In this document: positions 44,798 through 53,368 of the stretch, in pieces
How positions within the stretch are numbered: the stretch's first letter is position 1
Layout: each line of letters starts with the position of its first letter
Assembly (NCBI GenBank): GCA_046291555.1
Contig: JBKBRW010000011.1
Span: 575 to 64,574 of the forward strand
Direction of reading: 5' to 3'
Length of the DNA: 64,000 nt
From: Thiobacillus sp.
GTDB taxonomy: Bacteria; Pseudomonadota; Gammaproteobacteria; Burkholderiales; Thiobacillaceae
The notes under the pieces: generated by a model
Databases searched by the model: none
What the model was told of the DNA's origin: nothing
Seen by the model: only the letters and a program-made list of their open reading frames with translations
Program-made: the position numbers and the translations under genes

Positions 44798-45913
44798 ATG
44801 TCTAAACGCGACTACTACGAGGTCCTCGGCGTCGCCAAGAACGCCTCGGACGAAGATATCAAGAAGGCCTACCGCAAGCTGGCGATGAAATTTCACCCCG
44901 ACCGCAACCCGGACGACAAGAACGCGGAGGAGAAATTCAAGGAAGCCAAGTTGGCCTATGAAATCCTGTCGGATGCCGACAAGCGTGCGGCCTACGACCA
45001 GTTCGGCCATGCCGGGGTGGATCAGCAGGCCGGCATGGGTGGCGGTTTCGGCGGCAGCGGCTTTGCCGACGCCTTTTCCGATATTTTCGGTGACATCTTC
45101 GGCGGCGGGGGCGGCAACCGGCGCGACCGCGTGTACCGCGGCGCCGACCTGCGCTACAACCTCGAAATCAGCCTCGAAGAAGCGGCGCGCGGGACCGAAA
45201 CCAAAATCCGCATTCCCACGCTGGAAGCGTGCAGCACCTGTCATGGTTCAGGGGCCAGGCCGGGTAGCCAGCCCACCACCTGCACCACCTGTGGTGGACA
45301 CGGCCAGGTAAGAATCCAGCAGGGCTTTTTCTCGGTGCAGCAGACCTGTCCGCGTTGCGGCGGCAGCGGCAAGATCGTCACCGACCCCTGCCCCGCTTGC
45401 CATGGCGAGGGCCGGATCAAAAAGCACAAGACGCTGTCGGTGAAAATTCCGGCCGGCGTGGACAGCGGTGACCGCATCCGCCTCGCCGGCGAAGGCGAAG
45501 CCGGCGTGAACGGTGGCCCGGCCGGCGATCTGTACGTGGTGATCAACCTCAAGGAACACCCCGTGTTCAAACGCGACGGCGACGATCTGCATTGCGAAAT
45601 GCCAATCTCCTTTGTCAGCGCAGCGCTGGGAGGCGAAGTCGAAATTCCCACGCTCGATGGTCACGCCAAGGTGAAAATTCCAGCCGAAACCCAGACCGGC
45701 AAAGTATTCCGCCTGCGCGGCAAAGGCATCAAGGGCGTGCGCAGCGCGGCACCCGGCGACCTGCTCTGTCACATCCTGGTGGAAACGCCGGTCAATCTGT
45801 CGGAACGCCAGCGCGACCTGCTGCGCGAATTCGAATCGCTGGCCCCGGGGCGCAACAACAATCCACGCGCCCAGTCGTTCATGGACAAGGTCAAGGCTTT
45901 CTTCAGCCAGTAA
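44798..45913 (+). CDS. dnaJ: Chaperone DnaJ
   Basis: HPD; four CxxCxGxG repeats. Confidence 0.98.
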
Positions 45914-46055: not shown

Positions 46056-47699
46056 ATGGATTGGAAACGCATGGGTCGTCTGAAGCTGGACACGCTGTCC
46101 GGGCGGATTTTCGTATTCTTTTTTGTGCTGATACTCATCGCCCAGCTGGGCAGTATCGGCATCAGCAGCACGCTGAGCGACTCGATCGCCCGCCAGACCC
46201 TGCGCAACGAACTCGTCACCGCCGAGCGGGTGGTGCGACTCCAGCTTGCCCAGAACACCGACTACCTCGACCTCGGCGCGCGCGTGCTGGCGGCGGACTA
46301 CGGCTTTCGCGAAGCAATGACGAGCCGCGACATCCCCACTATCGTCTCGGCGCTCGACAACCACAGTGCCCGTATCCATGCCGACTGGATGCTGCTGACC
46401 GACGCCCACGCCATGCCCCTGGCCGCCAGCACCGGAGCAGCGGCCCTGCTGCAGCATGAACCGCTGGTGAGCTGGCTGCGCGCCCTGCACCGGCACGGCG
46501 AATCCGCCACCCTGGCCACGGTGAACGGCATGCTATACCAGATCATTGCCGTGAGGATTACCGCGCCCATCCCCGTCGGAACCATCGTCGTGGGTTTCCA
46601 CCTGGATGACGAGGTCGCGCAGAAGCTGGGTGCCATCGCCGGCGTGCGGCTCAGCTTCGCGCGACTCAACGCCGAACAACGCTGGGAAGTGGTGACGAGC
46701 AATCTGGATGCGGCGTCCCGCCGCCTGCTGATCGATGCCTTGAACCAGCCGGATGCCGGTTGGGATACGGCGCTGGACCGGCCGCCGCACCGCATGCTCG
46801 GCGTGCACGGGCCGCTCGCAGCCGTACCCGGCCATCGGGTCGAGCTGGTGGTGCAGAAATCACTCGATGAGGCGCTGGCTCCTTTTCAAAAGCTGCGCAA
46901 CTGGCTGCTCTGGCTCACGCTGGGCGGGCTGGCGCTGGCCGGCCTGTTCAGCTTCCGCATCGCCCGGGGCGTTACCCGGCCGCTGGTGGCCCTGGCCACA
47001 TCGGCTGACCGGATCGCGCGCGGCGACTATTCGCGCGGCCGCAGAATCACGGCTCCACGCGAAATCGCCGCACTGTCGCACGCACTCGACACCATGCGCG
47101 AGCGCATCGCGCAGCGCGAAGCCCGTATCCTGGAACTGGCCACGCGAGAAGCCCATATGCTCGACCTGGCTTACCACGACAGCCTCACCGGTCTGCCTAA
47201 CCGGGCGTTGTTCAACGAGCGGCTGGAGCAATCGCTGGCCGTCACTCTCCGCGCAGGCGCCCCGACCACCATCATGCTGCTCGATCTGGATCGGTTCAAA
47301 CAGGTGAACGACACCCACGGTCATCTGCTGGGTGACCAGCTGCTGGTGGCCGTGGCCCAGCGGCTACGGGCCCATCTCCAGCGCGGCTCCGATGTGGTCG
47401 CCCGTTTAGGCGGCGATGAATTCGCATTCCTGCTTCCCACCGCCACGCCAGCATCGGCCGCGCAGATTGCGCGCGCCCTGCTCGACGACCTCGCCCGCCC
47501 CTTCCTGATCAGCGACCACGAATTCGAGATCGGCGGCAGCTTGGGCATCGCCAGCGCCCCGGACAACGGCCGCGACGCCCAGACCCTGATGCACGAGGCC
47601 GATGTGGCCATGTATTACGCCAAACGGATGCGTATCGGGCTGGCGTTCGCGCAGTCGGCACAGACGCCGAAGACCGTGCCGCCGGCTGTGCAGAAATGA
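46056..47699 (+). CDS. Membrane diguanylate cyclase (TM-periplasmic Cache-like-TM-HAMP-GGDEF)
   Basis: DSLTGLPNR; DLDRFKQVND.HGH..GD; RGSD I-site; RLGGDEF. Confidence 0.92.
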   Translation: MDWKRMGRLKLDTLSGRIFVFFFVLILIAQLGSIGISSTLSDSIARQTLRNELVTAERVVRLQLAQNTDYLDLGARVLAADYGFREAMTSRDIPTIVSALDNHSARIHADWMLLTDAHAMPLAASTGAAALLQHEPLVSWLRALHRHGESATLATVNGMLYQIIAVRITAPIPVGTIVVGFHLDDEVAQKLGAIAGVRLSFARLNAEQRWEVVTSNLDAASRRLLIDALNQPDAGWDTALDRPPHRMLGVHGPLAAVPGHRVELVVQKSLDEALAPFQKLRNWLLWLTLGGLALAGLFSFRIARGVTRPLVALATSADRIARGDYSRGRRITAPREIAALSHALDTMRERIAQREARILELATREAHMLDLAYHDSLTGLPNRALFNERLEQSLAVTLRAGAPTTIMLLDLDRFKQVNDTHGHLLGDQLLVAVAQRLRAHLQRGSDVVARLGGDEFAFLLPTATPASAAQIARALLDDLARPFLISDHEFEIGGSLGIASAPDNGRDAQTLMHEADVAMYYAKRMRIGLAFAQSAQTPKTVPPAVQK

Positions 47700-47719
47700 A
47701 CACCGCAGGCCCAGCCCGA

Positions 47720-48571
47720 TCAATAGGCCAATTGCACCGATAGATAGCTTGCGCGCTGCCCGGCCTTGTCGGCAACCGTGCCCAGCCATGCATGGGCAAT
47801 CGTGAACGAGATCTGCTTGTTCGGCCACCAGGCCAGGAACACGTCGCGGTAATCGTCTTCGGGGAACACGCTGAGGTTGTTTGGTTTTTGCCTGTATTCG
47901 GCGCCCAGCGCCAGGTTGTCCTGCAACATCCAGGCCGCGCTGCCTTCAAACTGGGCCTTGATGCGGTCGCCCAGATCACCGCCAAAACCGAGCAGGCCCA
48001 TCTGGTTGGCGCGGGTGCCGCGCACAGTCAGATTCAGTAGCAGGCTGCGCCCCAGTGGGCCGTCGATATAGAACTTGGTGGCGCTGGCATAAAGATCGGT
48101 ATCGCTGTCTCGCCGCGCGCCGAGCGTGGCCGGCACCGCAGCGAAATCGCGGTTGCGCTTGTGCTGCGCGCCGATCGCAATCTGCGGCAGCCAGCGATCC
48201 TGGTCATAGATCGCATCGCCCGCCAGCCGCACCTTGATGCCGAAAACGTCCTGCTCGATCGCGGCCCCCGGCACGGTTGTGCCCAACCCCAGACGTTGCC
48301 GTGCGAACGAGAGTTCCAGCCGGTCGTAGATGCCCACGCCCACGCCCGCAGCGGTGAGCCGGAAATCGCTGATGTCGAGATGCGTGACGAACGCCGTCGT
48401 ACCGATTTCGCGATTGGTCCCCGTTCCGGCAATGAGTGCCCAGGGCGACAGGCCGCCGCCTGCCGCGCCTTCGATCTGGGTCACGCCCCCGGTCGCCACC
48501 AGACGCCCGCCGCCCTGCACCGGCGCGCTCAGCGCCAGCAGCGCGCACGCCAGGATTCCGCCTGTTTTCAT
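47720..48571 (-). CDS. DUF3034-family outer-membrane beta-barrel protein
   Basis: Signal peptide; RLVATGGVTQIEGAAGGGLSPWALIAG; YRQKPNNL; C-terminal aromatic residue. Confidence 0.8.
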   Translation of the reverse strand: MKTGGILACALLALSAPVQGGGRLVATGGVTQIEGAAGGGLSPWALIAGTGTNREIGTTAFVTHLDISDFRLTAAGVGVGIYDRLELSFARQRLGLGTTVPGAAIEQDVFGIKVRLAGDAIYDQDRWLPQIAIGAQHKRNRDFAAVPATLGARRDSDTDLYASATKFYIDGPLGRSLLLNLTVRGTRANQMGLLGFGGDLGDRIKAQFEGSAAWMLQDNLALGAEYRQKPNNLSVFPEDDYRDVFLAWWPNKQISFTIAHAWLGTVADKAGQRASYLSVQLAY

Positions 48572-48713
48572 GAATGCCCCGGATGTTCTGCCTGCCTGTC
48601 CTCTTATGACGACGTTTTCCGTCCGGACTTTAGCGGCGGGCGCGGGCAAGCGTCAAGTTCTGCGGACTTGTTCCGTTACTACCTGCGCGGAGTACCGATA
48701 CAGGACAAAAAAC

Positions 48714-49130
48714 ATGCATAACCTGCTGACTGGCTTGTTGGGCTTTGCGCTGGCCGCCGGCATGGCGCACGCGGATGATTCGCTTTACGCGCGTCTCGGC
48801 GGCGAGGCCGGCGTGGCGCAGATCACCTCGGAATACATCGACGCCGTGGCGTCCGATCCTGCCGTCAATCAGTCCTTCGAGAAAGTCAACCTCAAACGCG
48901 TGAAAAAAATGCTCGTCGAATTGACCTGCGCGCTTACCGGCGGCGGCTGCGTCTACAGCGGCGACGACATGAAAATCGTGCACAAGAACCTGAAGATCAC
49001 CGAACGTGAATTCAATGCCCTGGTGGAAGCCCTGCGTATTTCGCTGGATCGCCACGGCATCGCGCAACGCGACAAGAATGCGCTGCTGGCCATCCTGGCG
49101 CCGATGAAGCGGGATATTGTCGAAAAATGA
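48714..49130 (+). CDS. Exported group 1 truncated (2/2) haemoglobin
   Basis: Signal peptide ending AHA; SLYARLGGEAGV; TGGGCVYSG; MKIVH (proximal His); EFNALV. Confidence 0.9.
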   Translation: MHNLLTGLLGFALAAGMAHADDSLYARLGGEAGVAQITSEYIDAVASDPAVNQSFEKVNLKRVKKMLVELTCALTGGGCVYSGDDMKIVHKNLKITEREFNALVEALRISLDRHGIAQRDKNALLAILAPMKRDIVEK

Positions 49131-49717
49131 AATCCGCCCTGCTCCTCGCCCTGTTCCTGCCGACTATGGTCCAGGCCGCCACGCTCACCCTCAACCTGCG
49201 CGACGAGCGCGGCAACCCGGCCGAGGACACGGTTGTTTACCTGATGTCGGAGAAAACTCCCGGGATGCCCCTGAGGCAGCCACAAACCCAGATCGACCAG
49301 ATCAACAAGACCTTCGTGCCACTGGTATCCGTGGTGCAACGGGGCACCCGCATCCAGTTTCCCAACAAGGACAACATCCGGCATCACGTGTACTCCTTCT
49401 CGAAAGCCAAAAAATTCGAGATCAAGCTGTATGCCGACACCCCGGCCAAGCCCATTCTGTTCGACCAGCCGGGCTATGTGGCCATGGGCTGCAATATTCA
49501 CGACACCATGATTGCCCACCTGCTGGTGGTCGAAACGCCGTATTTCGCAGTCGCCGACAGGAGCGGGCGAGCCGTGATCGGCGACGTGCCGCCCGGCAAT
49601 TATTCGCTGATCGCCTGGCACTACATGCGCCCGGACGAGGATGCGCTGGTGATGCCGATCAAACTCGGCGCAGACACCACCCTCAGCGCAAGCGTGCGCA
49701 CCAGGAACGGGGACTAG
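49127..49717 (+). CDS. Exported cupredoxin (type 1 copper; 'methylamine utilization protein'-like)
   Basis: Signal peptide; IDQINKTFVP; FPNKDNIRHHVYSFS; GCNIHDTM (His, Cys, His, Met ligands). Confidence 0.88.
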   Translation: MKSALLLALFLPTMVQAATLTLNLRDERGNPAEDTVVYLMSEKTPGMPLRQPQTQIDQINKTFVPLVSVVQRGTRIQFPNKDNIRHHVYSFSKAKKFEIKLYADTPAKPILFDQPGYVAMGCNIHDTMIAHLLVVETPYFAVADRSGRAVIGDVPPGNYSLIAWHYMRPDEDALVMPIKLGADTTLSASVRTRNGD

Positions 49718-49719
49718 AC

Positions 49720-52101
49720 GTGAGACTGCCGCGTTTCAGAACTTTGCAGGGTCGCATCTTTGCGTTTTTCTTCGGCCTCCTGCTGCTGACTCAGGTCGCT
49801 GGCTACGCCCTCACGAGCACGGTAGGCTGGTCGATCATGCAGGACATCATGGCCGAGGATCTGCGCGGCGGACAGCAGGTATTCAAACGGCTGTCGGAGC
49901 AGAACACCCAGTTTCTGACCCAGGCAGCACGGGTGCTGACTACGGATTTTGGATTTCGCGAAGCCATTGCCAGCAAGGATGCCGACACCATCGCATCGGC
50001 CCTCGAAAACCATGGCAGCCGCATCCAGGCCGATTTGATGATGTTCGTCGATAACGACGGCACACCTTATCTCGGCAGTGGCAAGCCCTCCTCACTGGAA
50101 GACTCCCAAGGGATCGCGCGTCTTCTGGCCGTCATCTCGCCACAGGACGAAACCACCGGCTACGCCCGTTTGGGGAACGATCTGTACCAGGTGATCGTAG
50201 CACCGGTGAAAACCCCTTTGCCCATTGGCAACGTCATTGCCGGTTTTCGCATCAATATCGAAACCGCGCGCGAGTTCAGCCGCATCACGAATACCGACAT
50301 CAGCTTTCTGAGCCGCGTGCAAGACGGAAACTGGCTGACCCACGCCAGCACCCTGCCCGCTGCCATGCAGAAAAAAATCGCCGCTGATCCGGGCAGCGCG
50401 CCCGGCCTGGTCATGTCACCGCGCAGGGTGGATACACCCGGTGCAAGCTATCTCGCTCTCGATGTTCCCCTAGCCGCGCTCAATGTCGAGCACGCACGCG
50501 TCCTTCTGCAGTCGAATATCGATCAGGCGATGCTGCCGTTTTACGAACTGCGCAACAGTATGACGATACTGGGCCTGACCGGACTGCTGCTGTCGAGCCT
50601 GGCGAGCTTCATCATCTCGCGCGGCATCGCCGCACCGCTGCGCACGCTGTCGCAGCACGCCCGCCACATCGCCAGTGGCGACTACCGCTCGCCGCCTTCG
50701 CTGGATCGTGCTGACGAACTTGCGGATCTGGCCCACGCCTTCGGCGACATGAGCCAGGCCATTGCCGAGCGCGAGAACCGCATTCTCGAACTCGCCTATA
50801 CCGACACCCTCACAGGGCTGTCCAACCGTGCGCACTTCATCGAACGTCTGGCCACGGCACTCGCCACGACGGGGCGCGAGGGCGCACCGCTCGCGGTCGT
50901 GCTGCTCGATCTCGACCGTTTCCGCTACGTCAACGAGTCGCTGGGGCATCCCATGGGCGATCAGGTGCTGCGGGAAGCCGCCCGGCGCCTGGTCGCCACG
51001 CTGCGGCAGACCGACACGGTCGCTCGCCTGGGCGGCGATGAGTTTGCCATCCTGCTGCCTACCGCCACGCCCGCCGCTGCCCGCAAGGTCGTCAACAGCT
51101 TGCTGCTCGCGCTCGAAGCACCCATGGATATCGAAGGCCAGCTGGTCGACATCCATGGCAGTTTCGGCATTGCCACTTCGCCAGAACATAGCGCCGATCC
51201 GACCACGCTCATGCGCTGTGCCGACATCGCCATGTACAAGGCCAAGCAAGACAACCTGGGCTTTGCCGAATACGACACGCGCTACGACGAAAAAACGCTC
51301 GACCGGCTCTCGCTGATGAGTGAGCTGCGTCAGGCGGTGGAACAGAACCAGCTCGTGCTCTTCTATCAGCCCAAGGTCGACCTGAAGAACATTGGCAAGC
51401 CCGCCGTCGAGGCACTGGTGCGCTGGGTGCATCCGCTTCGCGGCTTCGTCCCGCCGGACCGTTTCATTCCTTTTGCCGAGCACACCGGCTATATCCAGGA
51501 AATCACCCGCTGGGTACTGCGCGAGGGGATACGGCAATGCAGCGCCTGGCAACGCGCCGGACTCGACGTGGCCATTTCGGTCAACCTGTCGGCGCGCGAT
51601 CTGATGAATACCGAATTGCCAGCCTACTTCGCCGCGCTGCTCAAAACACACGATTGCCGACCAGACCGGATCTGCCTGGAAATCACGGAAAGCGCCGTTC
51701 TGGATGATCCCCGTCATGCCCTGGAAAACCTCAAACGGCTGGAGGCTACCGGCTGCAAGCTCGCGCTCGACGATTACGGCACGGGCTATTCCTCGCTCGC
51801 CTATCTCAAGCAAATGCCCGTGAGCGAGCTGAAAATTGACCGTTCCTTCGTCCAGAACATGGTCAACGATCCCAACGATACGGTGATCGTGCGCTCCACC
51901 ATCGATCTGGCGCACAACCTCGGTTTGCGGGTGGTGGCGGAAGGCGTGGAAAACGAAGCCATCCTGAGCCAGCTGTGTCTATTGGGGTGCGACCAGGCGC
52001 AGGGCTACCATTTTTCCAAACCGGTGTCGGCGGCAGATTTTGAAGCCTGGGTGCAGTCCCCGGCCTGGCAGCATCAGGTGCGGGTCGCGCGCCACGCCTG
52101 A
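49720..52101 (+). CDS. Membrane GGDEF-EAL protein (TM-Cache-like-TM-HAMP-GGDEF-EAL), GTG start
   Basis: RQTD I-site; RLGGDEF; FYQP; VEALVRW; LEITES; DDYGTGYSS; KIDRSFV; AEGVE. Confidence 0.94.
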   Translation: MRLPRFRTLQGRIFAFFFGLLLLTQVAGYALTSTVGWSIMQDIMAEDLRGGQQVFKRLSEQNTQFLTQAARVLTTDFGFREAIASKDADTIASALENHGSRIQADLMMFVDNDGTPYLGSGKPSSLEDSQGIARLLAVISPQDETTGYARLGNDLYQVIVAPVKTPLPIGNVIAGFRINIETAREFSRITNTDISFLSRVQDGNWLTHASTLPAAMQKKIAADPGSAPGLVMSPRRVDTPGASYLALDVPLAALNVEHARVLLQSNIDQAMLPFYELRNSMTILGLTGLLLSSLASFIISRGIAAPLRTLSQHARHIASGDYRSPPSLDRADELADLAHAFGDMSQAIAERENRILELAYTDTLTGLSNRAHFIERLATALATTGREGAPLAVVLLDLDRFRYVNESLGHPMGDQVLREAARRLVATLRQTDTVARLGGDEFAILLPTATPAAARKVVNSLLLALEAPMDIEGQLVDIHGSFGIATSPEHSADPTTLMRCADIAMYKAKQDNLGFAEYDTRYDEKTLDRLSLMSELRQAVEQNQLVLFYQPKVDLKNIGKPAVEALVRWVHPLRGFVPPDRFIPFAEHTGYIQEITRWVLREGIRQCSAWQRAGLDVAISVNLSARDLMNTELPAYFAALLKTHDCRPDRICLEITESAVLDDPRHALENLKRLEATGCKLALDDYGTGYSSLAYLKQMPVSELKIDRSFVQNMVNDPNDTVIVRSTIDLAHNLGLRVVAEGVENEAILSQLCLLGCDQAQGYHFSKPVSAADFEAWVQSPAWQHQVRVARHA

Positions 52102-52872
52102 TCAGGCGCGGGCAGCAGCAAACAGGCGAAAAAAGTTCTCGGTCGTGGCGGCACCGATGATTTCGGGCGTGGTGCCCCGCACGCGCGCAATCTCTTCCGC
52201 CACATGCTTGACAAAGCCCGGTTCGTTGGTCTGGCCACGATGCGGCACCGGGGCAAGATACGGTGAGTCGGTCTCGATCAGGATCCGTTCCAGCGGGATG
52301 CTTGCCGCCACCTCACGCAGCGTTGCGGCATTCTTGAACGTGACGATGCCGGAAAACGAGATGTAGAACCCCATTTCGATGGCGGCTTCGGCCACCGCCA
52401 GGCTCTCGGTGAAGCAGTGCATCACCCCGCCCGTCCGCCCGGCGTCCTCTTCCCGCATGATCGCCAGCGTATCGTCCGCCGCGGCACGGGTGTGGATGAC
52501 CAGCGGTTTGCCGCTGGCCCGGGCCGCACGGATATGGGTGCGGAAGCGTTCGCGCTGCCATTCGAGATCGCCCGTCAGACGGAAATAGTCGAGACCGGTT
52601 TCACCGATGGCCACCACCCTGGGATGGTCGGCCAGCGCAACGAGTTCGTCCACGCTCGGTTCGGTGCAGTCTTCATGGTCGGGATGCACGCCTACCGACG
52701 CGAAGACATTCGGGTGCGCCTCGGCGAGTGCGCGCACCTCGGGAAATTTCTCCAGTTCCACGCTGATGCACAGCGCATGGCTCACCTCATTGGCGGCCAT
52801 GCGGCCGAGCACCTCGGGCAGTTTCTCCGCAAGCTCCGGGAAATTGATGTGGCAGTGAGAATCGACGTACAT
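52102..52872 (-). CDS. TatD-family hydrolase
   Basis: DSHCH; IGETGLDY; IHTR; ETDSPY. Confidence 0.95.
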   Translation of the reverse strand: MYVDSHCHINFPELAEKLPEVLGRMAANEVSHALCISVELEKFPEVRALAEAHPNVFASVGVHPDHEDCTEPSVDELVALADHPRVVAIGETGLDYFRLTGDLEWQRERFRTHIRAARASGKPLVIHTRAAADDTLAIMREEDAGRTGGVMHCFTESLAVAEAAIEMGFYISFSGIVTFKNAATLREVAASIPLERILIETDSPYLAPVPHRGQTNEPGFVKHVAEEIARVRGTTPEIIGAATTENFFRLFAAARA

Positions 52873-52996: not shown

Positions 52997-53368
52997 CTAC
53001 ATGGTGTGCGTGGGACGCACGGATTTCAGCGACCCGCCGAGCAAGCCCTCGATCTTGTTCTGGGCGGCCTTGCCGCTTTCGTTGTTGACGAACTGCACGC
53101 CGACGCCTTGCGTCCGCCCGCCGTGCGCGCCGGCCGGCGTCTGCCAGATGACCTTGCCGGATACCGGCAGTTTCGCCGGGTCGTCCATCAGCGTCAGCAG
53201 CATGAACACTTCCTCGCCCATGCGATATTGCTTGTTGGTGGGAATGAACAGGCCGCCGCCGCGAATGAAGGGCATGTACGCCGCGAACAGCGCGGACTTC
53301 TCCTTGATCGACAGCGACAGCACGCCGGGGCGGACGTGGCCTGCGGGATCGTTGACTGCAGCGTTCAT
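52997..53368 (-). CDS. pilZ: Type IV pilus PilZ protein
   Basis: LSLSIKEKSALFAAYMPFIRGGGLFIPT; RPTHTM. Confidence 0.95.
   Translation of the reverse strand: MNAAVNDPAGHVRPGVLSLSIKEKSALFAAYMPFIRGGGLFIPTNKQYRMGEEVFMLLTLMDDPAKLPVSGKVIWQTPAGAHGGRTQGVGVQFVNNESGKAAQNKIEGLLGGSLKSVRPTHTM

What the first reader, a model, noticed from the sequence alone, without database searches (positions are those of the whole stretch)
46056..52101. Candidate trans-envelope haem/copper sensing system wired to two c-di-GMP enzymes
Seen: a tightly coupled operon of exported truncated globin (48714), exported type-1 copper protein (49127, 4-nt overlap) and membrane GGDEF-EAL (49720, 2 nt after the stop). It is divergent from a DUF3034 outer-membrane barrel, and a second membrane diguanylate cyclase lies beyond that. 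The block sits between core genes dnaJ and tatD. Known: truncated globins bind O2/NO, cupredoxins shuttle one electron, and YfiBNR-type systems use an outer-membrane protein plus a periplasmic partner to control an inner-membrane cyclase. Inference: a periplasmic haem-copper relay that reads O2/NO/redox state and sets c-di-GMP. I recall similar gene neighbourhoods in other proteobacteria but know of no characterised mechanism. Best candidate for an undescribed system in the window.
Basis: partly seen in the sequence, partly recalled or inferred. Interest (0 to 1): 0.85.

Follow-up and report, generated by a model that had tools for sequence, protein, structure and literature searches.

The report
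Haem-copper envelope module on c-di-GMP enzymes
The window carries a real gene set found in many bacteria: an outer-membrane barrel, an exported small haemoglobin, an exported blue-copper protein and membrane enzymes that make and break the biofilm signal c-di-GMP. I found no study of it, and it most likely lets the cell read a redox or gas cue outside the cytoplasm.

Summary

- **Copper protein:** Pfam misses it, but its AlphaFold model matches pseudoazurin, amicyanin and plastocyanin. His86, Cys122, His125 and Met128 are invariant, with amicyanin spacing.
- **DUF3034:** it models as a 12-stranded outer-membrane barrel.
- **Globin:** it is a subgroup-2 group-N truncated haemoglobin with a signal peptide, a conserved Cys pair and the proximal His.

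The set is two linked pairs, not one fixed operon.

- **Barrel plus globin:** DUF3034 has an exported globin next to it in 77 of 80 named-genome loci. In Oxalobacteraceae the two are fused into one protein (at least 77 protein clusters).
- **Cupredoxin plus sensor:** the cupredoxin sits beside a dCache_3 membrane protein. Its output is GGDEF-EAL, a class III cyclase, or nothing.
- **Linkage:** in a phylum-wide sample, 32 of 33 DUF3034 genomes also have the cupredoxin, and 26 have it within 3.5 kb.
- **Second partner:** the barrel-globin pair also sits next to ECF sigma/anti-sigma genes in 25 of 119 loci.

The signal, the haem-to-copper relay and the barrel's role are inferred, not shown. The resemblance to YfiBNR is by analogy only. 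The second cyclase is lineage-specific. I found no literature on the module. Earlier agents in this scan saw it in at least 11 other genomes.

The parts
46056..47699 (+). Membrane diguanylate cyclase: TM, periplasmic dCache_3-like domain, TM, HAMP, GGDEF (GGDEF and RxxD I-site intact). It is a paralogue of the downstream sensor.
   Evidence: Pfam GGDEF 1e-47, HAMP 2e-8, dCache_3 1e-5. It is 40% identical over 539 aa to the GGDEF-EAL protein, periplasmic domain included. It is present only in the nearest relative, L088.
47720..48571 (-). DUF3034: exported 12-stranded outer-membrane beta-barrel. The Gly-rich mature N-terminus is highly conserved (ATGGVTQIEGAAGGGLSPWALI).
   Evidence: Pfam PF11231 E 6e-101. 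AF2 pLDDT 78 with 12 strands; the N-terminal residues 16-42 have low confidence. Foldseek top hits are FapF, NanC, OmpG and KdgM. Start codon read. Invariant N-terminal residues.
48572..48713 (.). Divergent 142-bp intergenic region between DUF3034 and the globin operon.
   Evidence: Sequence. There is one sigma-70-like match on the minus strand, which is no more than shuffles give. No FNR-like box is present.
48714..49130 (+). Exported group-N subgroup-2 truncated haemoglobin with a Sec signal peptide (…AGMAHA|DD). Key positions: proximal His90, Cys72/Cys79 pair, apolar B10 (I42), E7 (V63) and E11 (L67), Phe55 at CD1.
   Evidence: Pfam Bac_globin 5e-12. The best solved relatives are Shewanella benthica TrHbN-2 (7tt9/8tls/8ugz), E about 1e-18, against 1e-10 for subgroup 1. 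Conservation. Signal peptides or lipoboxes are present in all neighbouring homologues. Residue mapping follows PMC11904497.
49127..49717 (+). Exported cupredoxin ('MauL-like', labelled 'methylamine utilization protein' or 'plastocyanin' by sources). It has a type-1 Cu ligand set, H86, C122, H125, M128 (C-x2-H-x2-M), plus an Ig-like (CarboxypepD_reg-like) part.
   Evidence: AF2 pLDDT 88.6. Foldseek top hits are pseudoazurin with an amicyanin loop (2ux6), plastocyanin, amicyanin and a NirK domain. The ligands are invariant in 42 sequences, and C-x2-H-x2-M is present in 127 of 128 locus sequences. There are 5518 homologue clusters.
49720..52101 (+). Membrane c-di-GMP enzyme: TM, periplasmic dCache_3, TM, HAMP, GGDEF, EAL. 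Read directly, the GGDEF, RxxD, EAL, DDYGTGYSS and EGVE motifs are all intact.
   Evidence: Pfam EAL 1e-75, GGDEF 5e-44, dCache_3 1.5e-16, HAMP 7e-13. GTG start 2 nt after the cupredoxin stop. The family-specific periplasmic motif DfxfRxA…NHGxRIxA…YQ is conserved in 46 sensors.

Best explanation
This is a conserved, modular envelope signalling system made of two coupled units.

Unit 1, at the outer membrane: the 12-stranded DUF3034 barrel holds a subgroup-2 truncated haemoglobin at its periplasmic face.

Unit 2, at the inner membrane: a type-1-copper cupredoxin acts as co-receptor of a dCache_3 periplasmic domain. That domain drives a HAMP-coupled output through the membrane.

Proposed working (inferred):
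1. The haem reacts with a small oxidant, gas or anion (O2, NO, sulfide, peroxide or nitrite) that reaches it through or beside the barrel.
2. The resulting change in redox or ligation state passes to the cupredoxin by one-electron transfer or by contact.
3. The dCache_3 domain reads the state of the cupredoxin.
4. This shifts the balance between c-di-GMP synthesis and breakdown.

In this window two paralogous receivers would share the input: a pure cyclase and a cyclase-phosphodiesterase.

Shown: gene content, export signals, folds, cofactor ligands, co-occurrence, natural fusion of globin and barrel, and variable outputs. Inferred: cofactor loading, any protein-protein contact between the units, the direction of signalling and the nature of the signal.
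For: - **Translational coupling:** globin to cupredoxin to sensor, by ATGA overlap then a 2-nt gap.
- **Barrel-globin adjacency:** 77 of 80 named-genome DUF3034 loci and 31 of 38 in the order sample have an exported globin within 1.5 kb.
- **Fusion:** a signal peptide-globin-linker-barrel protein occurs in at least 77 clusters. This places the globin in the periplasm, on the barrel.
- **Cupredoxin-sensor pair:** the cupredoxin is followed by a dCache_3-HAMP protein whose output varies: GGDEF-EAL, Guanylate_cyc or none. Constant input with variable output is the usual signature of a sensory input module.
- **The two units travel together:** 57 of 80 named loci have them adjacent. In the phylum sample 32 of 33 DUF3034 genomes have both, and 26 have them within 3.5 kb.
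- **A second signalling back end:** the barrel-globin pair also sits beside ECF sigma plus RskA or ChrR anti-sigma genes in 25 of 119 loci.
- **Tethering:** in many lineages the periplasmic parts are tethered (lipoprotein globins; lipoprotein cupredoxins on long Pro/Ala linkers). That fits fixed complexes better than free carriers.
- **Cofactor sites:** conserved.
Against: - No experiment exists on any member, and no RNA data exist for this organism.
- ECF sigma/anti-sigma pairs usually sit beside the genes they control. That association fits barrel-globin as a regulated stress effector as well as it fits a sensor.
- Xanthomonadales carry a dCache-HAMP protein with no output domain. The membrane protein may therefore have a structural or transport role.
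- The cupredoxin-sensor pair works without barrel and globin in about half of the cupredoxin loci.
- No FNR-type box is enriched upstream, and the genome has neither NirS nor H-NOX. Nothing points to a particular signal.
Confidence: 0.48

Rival explanations
1. Periplasmic redox or detoxification machine. The barrel-tethered globin is an enzyme (NO dioxygenase, peroxidase, or sulfide or nitrite handling). The cupredoxin is its one-electron reductant. The dCache_3 enzyme and the ECF sigma factors are only regulators encoded nearby.
For: - ECF sigma plus ChrR- or RskA-type anti-sigma genes, which are oxidative/redox stress regulators, lie beside barrel-globin in 25 of 119 loci, usually upstream and co-directional.
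- An AhpC/redoxin gene neighbours the fusion proteins.
- This genome's second DUF3034-globin pair sits in an operon with cytochrome P460 and an FGE-sulfatase-like protein.
- The solved relative SbHbN reacts with peroxide and does not form a stable oxy complex (PMC11904497).
Against: - The sensor gene is translationally coupled to, or sandwiched between, the accessory genes. That is the usual layout for co-receptors.
- The cupredoxin tracks the dCache_3 protein more faithfully than it tracks the globin.
- No reductase or cytochrome c that would feed the cupredoxin is conserved in the neighbourhood.
Confidence: 0.27
2. Two independent functions that merely share a neighbourhood. The cupredoxin plus dCache_3 pair is a self-contained copper or periplasmic-redox sensor. 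Barrel plus globin serve something else, such as haem or porphyrin capture, or a small-anion channel with a haem gate.
For: - Each pair occurs alone in many genomes.
- In Pseudoduganella and Duganella the fused barrel-globin is unlinked from the cupredoxin-sensor pair.
- The barrel resembles small specific porins such as NanC and KdgM.
Against: - 32 of 33 DUF3034 genomes in the phylum sample also carry the cupredoxin, and 26 have it within 3.5 kb, across three proteobacterial classes and several gene orders.
- Overlapping start and stop codons join genes of the two pairs in this window.
Confidence: 0.17
3. Chance juxtaposition or annotation artefact: spurious ORFs in high-GC DNA.
For: High GC content gives many long spurious ORFs in this window.
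Against: - All five genes have strong family matches or confident folds.
- The arrangement recurs in hundreds of genomes.
Confidence: 0.01

Closest known systems
YfiBNR (TpbB) system of Pseudomonas aeruginosa and E. coli
   Same: An outer-membrane component, a periplasmic accessory protein and an inner-membrane HAMP-GGDEF enzyme are encoded together. The periplasmic partner gates c-di-GMP output. (From my own knowledge of the system.)
   Different: No shared families. YfiB is an OmpA/Pal-like lipoprotein, not a 12-stranded barrel. YfiR carries no cofactor. The window's sensors score 161-173 bits against a cut-off of 325 for DgcN/YfiN, and only over HAMP-GGDEF. Here there are two cofactor proteins (haem and Cu) and a dCache_3 input.
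Stand-alone haem sensors with partner enzymes: H-NOX with HaCE or HnoK, and NosP
   Same: A small haem protein encoded in an operon with a c-di-GMP enzyme or kinase, controlling it by protein-protein contact on gas binding. (Own knowledge.)
   Different: Those are cytoplasmic and have unrelated folds. H-NOX (PF07700) is absent from this genome. Here the haem protein is a periplasmic 2-on-2 globin tied to an outer-membrane barrel, and a cupredoxin stands between it and the sensor.
Periplasmic co-receptor sensors: NspS-MbaA, LuxP-LuxQ, TorT-TorS
   Same: A soluble periplasmic protein encoded next to, and acting through, the periplasmic PAS/Cache-type domain of a membrane signalling enzyme. (Own knowledge.)
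   Different: Those co-receptors are solute-binding proteins without redox cofactors, and no outer-membrane partner is involved.
Shewanella benthica SbHbN and the TrHbN-2 clade (PDB 7tt9, 8tls, 8ugz; PMC11904497)
   Same: The closest solved relatives of the window's globin, E about 1e-18. Shared features are apolar B10/E7/E11, Met at E10, Cys at E16 and the proximal His.
   Different: The paper does not mention export, operons or neighbouring genes. The crystallised chain begins at the residues that follow the signal peptide in the window's globin. SbHbN lacks the C-x6-C pair and has Tyr at CD1, where the window has Phe. The paper assigns no function to the clade.
Amicyanin, pseudoazurin and 'MauL' cupredoxins
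   Same: Cupredoxin fold, and the His…Cys-x2-His-x2-Met ligand loop of amicyanin length.
   Different: The window's protein has an extra Ig-like/CarboxypepD_reg-like part. It is not in a methylamine dehydrogenase cluster. It is partnered with a dCache_3 membrane protein instead of a redox enzyme. Identity with the genuine MauL of mau clusters was not tested.
Cell-surface signalling by TonB-dependent transducers (FecA-FecR-FecI)
   Same: An outer-membrane barrel carrying an N-terminal periplasmic domain that talks to an inner-membrane anti-sigma factor or sensor. The globin-barrel fusions and the ECF sigma/RskA neighbours give the same outline.
   Different: The barrel has 12 strands, not 22. 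No TonB box or plug domain was recognised. The periplasmic domain is a haem globin.

Membership tests
Type-1 (blue) copper cupredoxin | Cupredoxin beta-sandwich fold | tested here: met
   AF2 pLDDT 88.6. The Foldseek top 50 are pseudoazurin, plastocyanin, amicyanin, and NirK or N2OR cupredoxin domains, all with probability 1.00.
Type-1 (blue) copper cupredoxin | His, Cys, His, Met ligand set, with Cys-His-Met on one loop | tested here: met
   H86, C122, H125 and M128 are invariant in 42 homologues. C-x2-H-x2-M is present in 127 of 128 locus sequences.
Type-1 (blue) copper cupredoxin | Binds copper, with 600-nm absorbance and narrow EPR hyperfine splitting | not testable with these tools
   Needs purified protein.
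Truncated haemoglobin group N, subgroup 2 (TrHbN-2) | Bac_globin 2-on-2 domain with proximal His F8 and Gly-Gly motifs | tested here: met
   Pfam PF01152 5e-12. H90 and LY..GG are conserved at 90% or more in 44 sequences.
Truncated haemoglobin group N, subgroup 2 (TrHbN-2) | Closer to subgroup 2 than to subgroup 1; hydrophobic B10, E7 and E11; Phe at CD1 | tested here: met
   SbHbN E about 1e-18 against M. tuberculosis HbN and THB1 at about 1e-10. I42, V63, L67 and F55 mapped on the SbHbN numbering from PMC11904497. No phylogenetic tree was built.
DUF3034 (PF11231) | Match above the Pfam gathering score | tested here: met
   337.7 bits against a cut-off of 25.
Outer-membrane beta-barrel | Signal peptide, even number of amphipathic strands closing a barrel, C-terminal aromatic residue | tested here: met
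   12 strands in the AF2 model. Foldseek hits are FapF, NanC, OmpG and KdgM. The C-terminus reads …VQLAY.
GGDEF-EAL c-di-GMP enzymes | GGDEF and EAL domains with catalytic motifs | tested here: met
   Pfam hits. Motifs GGDEF, RxxD, EAL, DDYGTGYSS, KID, EGVE and QG read in the translation. Enzyme activity was not tested.
YfiBNR system | YfiN/DgcN equivalog, YfiR periplasmic repressor, YfiB OmpA-like lipoprotein | tested here: not met
   NCBIfam DgcN/YfiN scores 172.6 and 161 bits against a cut-off of 325. None of the accessory proteins gives a YfiR or OmpA family hit.
H-NOX-associated c-di-GMP control | H-NOX (PF07700) haem domain protein | tested here: not met
   No PF07700 match in the whole genome.
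Globin-coupled sensors (DosC/BpeGReg type) | Sensor globin fused to the output domain in one cytoplasmic protein | tested here: not met
   The globin is a separate, exported 2-on-2 protein. The only fusions found are to the DUF3034 barrel.

The most novel reading that the evidence does not exclude
This is a new kind of trans-envelope signalling device. A small outer-membrane barrel carries a haem globin on its periplasmic side. The globin passes a redox signal through a tethered blue-copper protein to an inner-membrane Cache-type receiver. The same outer-membrane front end plugs into c-di-GMP enzymes, cyclic-nucleotide cyclases or ECF anti-sigma factors in different lineages. It would be a haem/copper counterpart of TonB-dependent cell-surface signalling.
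Probability: 0.3. Interest if true: 0.85.

Novelty: new variant of a known kind. Interest (0 to 1): 0.7.

Why it matters
- Most c-di-GMP enzymes have periplasmic input domains whose signals are unknown. This module offers a defined, cofactor-bearing input that can be purified and followed by spectroscopy.
- It gives a first functional context to three orphan families: DUF3034, which has no literature; the roughly 1500-member TrHbN-2 globin clade, which has no assigned function; and the 'methylamine utilization protein' cupredoxins found outside mau clusters.
- The globin-barrel fusions show that a b-type haem globin works in the periplasm, attached to the outer membrane. That also raises the question of how haem b is delivered there.
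- The module occurs in about 8% of sampled Pseudomonadota genomes. Carriers include methylotrophs, sulfur oxidisers, Oxalobacteraceae and Xanthomonadales. Its function would bear on biofilm and motility control in many environmental bacteria.

Tried and rejected
- **Family and sequence searches on the 196-aa protein.** Pfam and NCBIfam gave no cupredoxin hit. A PDB sequence search found only a weak Ig-like match. The fold search was needed.
- **Literature.** 'DUF3034' returned 3 unrelated papers. 'Methylamine utilization protein' with GGDEF returned none. MauL with cupredoxin, and mauL with methylamine dehydrogenase, returned nothing useful. The 'dCache_3' hits were text artefacts. The search for periplasmic truncated haemoglobins found only cable-bacteria cytochrome-globin fusions.
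- **FNR/Dnr-type boxes.** In 54 divergent DUF3034/globin intergenic regions, 10 loci had a box against 5.7 ± 2.1 in shuffles. Some of those loci are duplicates and the window has none, so I did not take this as evidence.
- **Promoter and terminator scan.** No more matches than in shuffles.
- **NO link from the genome.** No NirS and no H-NOX, so NO is not favoured over other signals.
- **RNA evidence for co-transcription.** Only hot-spring DNA metagenomes hold the sequence.
- **P460 or FGE-sulfatase as general partners of DUF3034-globin.** They were found only in this genome's second locus.
- **A faulty script.** A first attempt to read the Cu ligands from an hmmalign output used wrong column mapping. 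I replaced it with a motif scan.
- **Fusions of the cupredoxin with the globin or the sensor.** None was found in 167 loci.

Full report
**What is in the window**

ORF listing and Pfam scans give this order:
- dnaJ, 44798-45913 (+).
- A 547-aa membrane protein, dCache_3-HAMP-GGDEF, 46056-47699 (+).
- A DUF3034 protein on the minus strand (E 6e-101).
- A 138-aa Bac_globin with a signal peptide, 48714-49130 (+).
- A 196-aa exported protein with no significant Pfam or NCBIfam family, 49127-49717 (+).
- A 793-aa dCache_3-HAMP-GGDEF-EAL protein, 49720-52101 (+).
- tatD, 52102-52872 (-).

The DNA confirms the ATGA overlap between globin and the 196-aa gene. It also confirms TAG-ac-GTG before the GGDEF-EAL gene. 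The DUF3034 start is the ATG at 48571, which leaves a 142-bp divergent intergenic region.

**The three accessory proteins**

The globin's best solved relatives are the Shewanella benthica group-N subgroup-2 truncated haemoglobins, at E about 1e-18. Subgroup-1 proteins score about 1e-10.

I mapped the residues onto the numbering in the paper on that protein (PMC11904497). The window's globin has:
- Ile42 at B10.
- Phe55 at CD1.
- Val63 at E7.
- Met66 at E10.
- Leu67 at E11.
- Cys72 at E16.
- His90 at F8.

This is the apolar distal pocket typical of the clade. The paper describes the clade as little studied, counts about 1500 sequences, and assigns it no function. It does not mention export or gene neighbours.

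Among 44 globins found next to DUF3034 or the cupredoxin, several features are at least 90% conserved: the proximal His, the LY..GG motif and a C-x6-C pair. Every one has a signal peptide or a lipobox.

The 196-aa protein gives a confident AlphaFold model (pLDDT 88.6). Its best PDB matches are pseudoazurin carrying the amicyanin loop, plastocyanin, amicyanin and the NirK cupredoxin domain. His86, Cys122, His125 and Met128 are invariant in 42 homologues. C-x2-H-x2-M occurs in 127 of 128 sequences from the fetched loci. The remainder of the protein is Ig-like, resembling CarboxypepD_reg. Public sources label the family 'methylamine utilization protein' or 'plastocyanin', and it has 5518 clusters.

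DUF3034 models as a 12-stranded barrel (pLDDT 78). Its matches are FapF, NanC, OmpG and KdgM. Its most conserved stretch is the Gly-rich mature N-terminus, which the model does not place with confidence.

**Conservation, and what it shows about the architecture**

I built my own HMMs for each component and ran them over 167 fetched loci.

*Barrel and globin.*
- DUF3034 and an exported globin are almost inseparable. 77 of 80 DUF3034 loci from named genomes have a globin within 1.5 kb. Two of the three exceptions (L100, L110) are cut by a contig end.
- In an even sample of 301 genomes of the order, 31 of 38 DUF3034 loci have a globin within 1.5 kb.
- The named carriers include Methylophilaceae, Comamonadaceae, Aquabacterium, Sulfuriferula, many Xanthomonadales, Steroidobacter, Moraxellaceae and Nitrospirillum.
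- In one complete genome the two are a single ORF: signal peptide, globin, short linker, then the mature DUF3034 N-terminus and barrel.
- A database search with that fusion found at least 77 clusters of 415-452 aa carrying both Pfam domains. They come from Pseudoduganella, Duganella, Janthinobacterium, Rugamonas and a Sphingomonadaceae MAG.
- The N-terminus of an even-stranded barrel lies in the periplasm. The fusion is therefore strong evidence that the globin is periplasmic and works on the barrel.

*Cupredoxin and sensor.*
- The cupredoxin is usually followed by a membrane dCache_3-HAMP protein.
- The output of that protein varies. It is mostly GGDEF-EAL. In several lineages it is a class III adenylate/guanylate cyclase.
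- In Xanthomonadales there is no output at all, only TM-dCache-TM-HAMP of about 350 aa.
- There the cupredoxin is often a lipoprotein on a Pro/Ala-rich linker of 100-170 residues.

*The two pairs together.*
- They are adjacent in 57 of 80 named loci.
- In a phylum-wide sample of 401 genomes, 33 have DUF3034, 49 have the cupredoxin and 32 have both. In 26 the two lie within 3.5 kb, in several different gene orders.
- Fisher p is about 1e-33, uncorrected for phylogeny.

*A second partner.*
- The barrel-globin pair has a second recurrent partner: an ECF sigma factor with an RskA-type or ChrR-cupin anti-sigma factor. This occurs in 25 of 119 loci.

**This genome in particular**

The block sits between dnaJ and tatD, as it does in a Thiobacillus relative. 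A third relative keeps only cupredoxin and sensor at the same site.

The extra cyclase (46056-47699) is 40% identical to the GGDEF-EAL protein over 539 residues, periplasmic domain included. It is found only in the closest relative (L088). It is therefore a recent paralogue that probably listens to the same partner.

Both proteins keep GGDEF and the RxxD site, and the second keeps all the EAL motifs (read).

The genome has a second DUF3034-globin pair on another contig. It lies in an operon with an FGE-sulfatase-like protein and a cytochrome P460, next to a third globin (a lipoprotein) and an ECF sigma factor.

The sequence comes from hot-spring metagenomes, and no RNA runs hold it.

**How it most likely works**

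These points are shown:
- Export of the three accessory proteins.
- Their folds.
- Conserved cofactor ligands.
- Linkage of the genes across genomes.
- Fusion of globin and barrel.
- Variable output of the sensor.

The following is my inference. The barrel-tethered haem protein is the front end. It reacts with a small oxidant, gas or anion. The cupredoxin couples it to the dCache_3 domain, by electron transfer or by contact. The dCache_3 domain sets the HAMP-driven output, which in this window is the balance of c-di-GMP synthesis and hydrolysis.

Three things favour a sensory input module:
- The input is constant while the output varies.
- The genes are translationally coupled.
- The periplasmic parts are tethered in many lineages.

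I put this at about 0.48.

The main rival (0.27) is that barrel, globin and cupredoxin form a periplasmic detoxification or redox enzyme system, with the sensors and sigma factors only regulating it. Supporting it:
- ECF/ChrR/RskA neighbours.
- AhpC-like neighbours.
- The P460 context.
- The peroxide reactivity of the solved relative.

A third reading (0.17) is that the two pairs have independent functions.

Nothing I found identifies the signal:
- The genome has no NirS and no H-NOX.
- FNR-like boxes are not convincingly enriched.
- The promoter scan is uninformative.

**Comparison with known systems**

The module works like the accessory-protein-gated c-di-GMP enzymes and kinases: YfiBNR, NspS-MbaA, LuxPQ and H-NOX/HaCE. 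In the fused and ECF-linked forms its outline also resembles FecA-FecR-FecI cell-surface signalling.

It is a member of none of them:
- The DgcN/YfiN model scores far below its cut-off.
- No YfiR or OmpA-like protein is present.
- H-NOX is absent.
- The globin is not fused to the output.

The individual parts do meet the tests I could run for a type-1 cupredoxin, a TrHbN-2 globin, DUF3034, and GGDEF/EAL enzymes.

**Novelty**

I found no paper on DUF3034 function, on exported TrHbN-2 globins with these partners, or on cupredoxin-dCache_3 pairs.

Earlier agents in this scan reported the same four-gene set in at least 11 other genomes and also found it uncharacterised. I treat those as leads that agree with my result, not as support.

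- The globin-barrel fusion family.
- The split into two separable pairs.
- The ECF sigma/anti-sigma alternative partner.
- The output-less and lipoprotein-tethered Xanthomonadales variant.
- The lineage-specific second receiver in this window.

I class the finding as a new variant of a known kind (accessory-protein-gated envelope sensors). It has a fair chance of being something more distinct.

Noticed in passing
G000 contig C33:94090-97095 (L003:6091-9095, minus strand): A second DUF3034 plus exported globin pair in the same genome. It lies in an operon FGE-sulfatase-like, DUF3034, globin, cytochrome P460 (CRSCH haem-c motif; Pfam PF16694 6e-22). This again places a haem protein beside a possibly copper-dependent one, but here with no cupredoxin or dCache sensor.
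   Followed up: partly
L003:9896-10360 (-) and L003:10269-11123 (+): A third exported truncated globin, of lipoprotein type (…VTFSAAC…), lies next to an ECF sigma factor. A GT2 cellulose-synthase-like gene and BcsS lie 2-5 kb away (L003:2418-5330).
   Followed up: partly
L074:6512-7789 (+); proteins P0241-P0317: Natural fusion proteins of 415-452 aa: signal peptide, truncated globin, then DUF3034 barrel. They occur in Pseudoduganella, Duganella, Janthinobacterium and Rugamonas. They are often flanked by a 4HBT thioesterase and an AhpC/redoxin gene, and in one case by ECF sigma plus RskA.
   Followed up: yes
L133, L134, L145, L149, L162 (Xanthomonadales loci), upstream of DUF3034: The cupredoxin is a lipoprotein, or is secreted on a Pro/Ala-rich linker of 100-170 residues (TonB-like in composition). 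The adjacent dCache protein ends after a HAMP-like segment and has no output domain.
   Followed up: partly
window 52997-53368 (-): A small PilZ-domain protein follows tatD, in the conserved tmk-holB-pilZ-tatD block. The same order is seen in relatives L004 and L006. It is probably unrelated to the module, despite the link of PilZ domains to c-di-GMP.
   Followed up: no
window 48500-52000: GC content falls to about 0.60-0.64 across the module, against 0.69-0.72 in the flanks beyond 42 kb and 53.5 kb. Sampled genomes of the same GTDB family and genus lack both DUF3034 and the cupredoxin. The module may have been acquired, or lost in relatives.
   Followed up: no
L006:1115-1624: In a relative that lacks barrel and globin, an HbpS-like (PF03928) haem-binding protein gene lies just after dnaJ, upstream of the cupredoxin-sensor pair. 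This may be coincidence.
   Followed up: no
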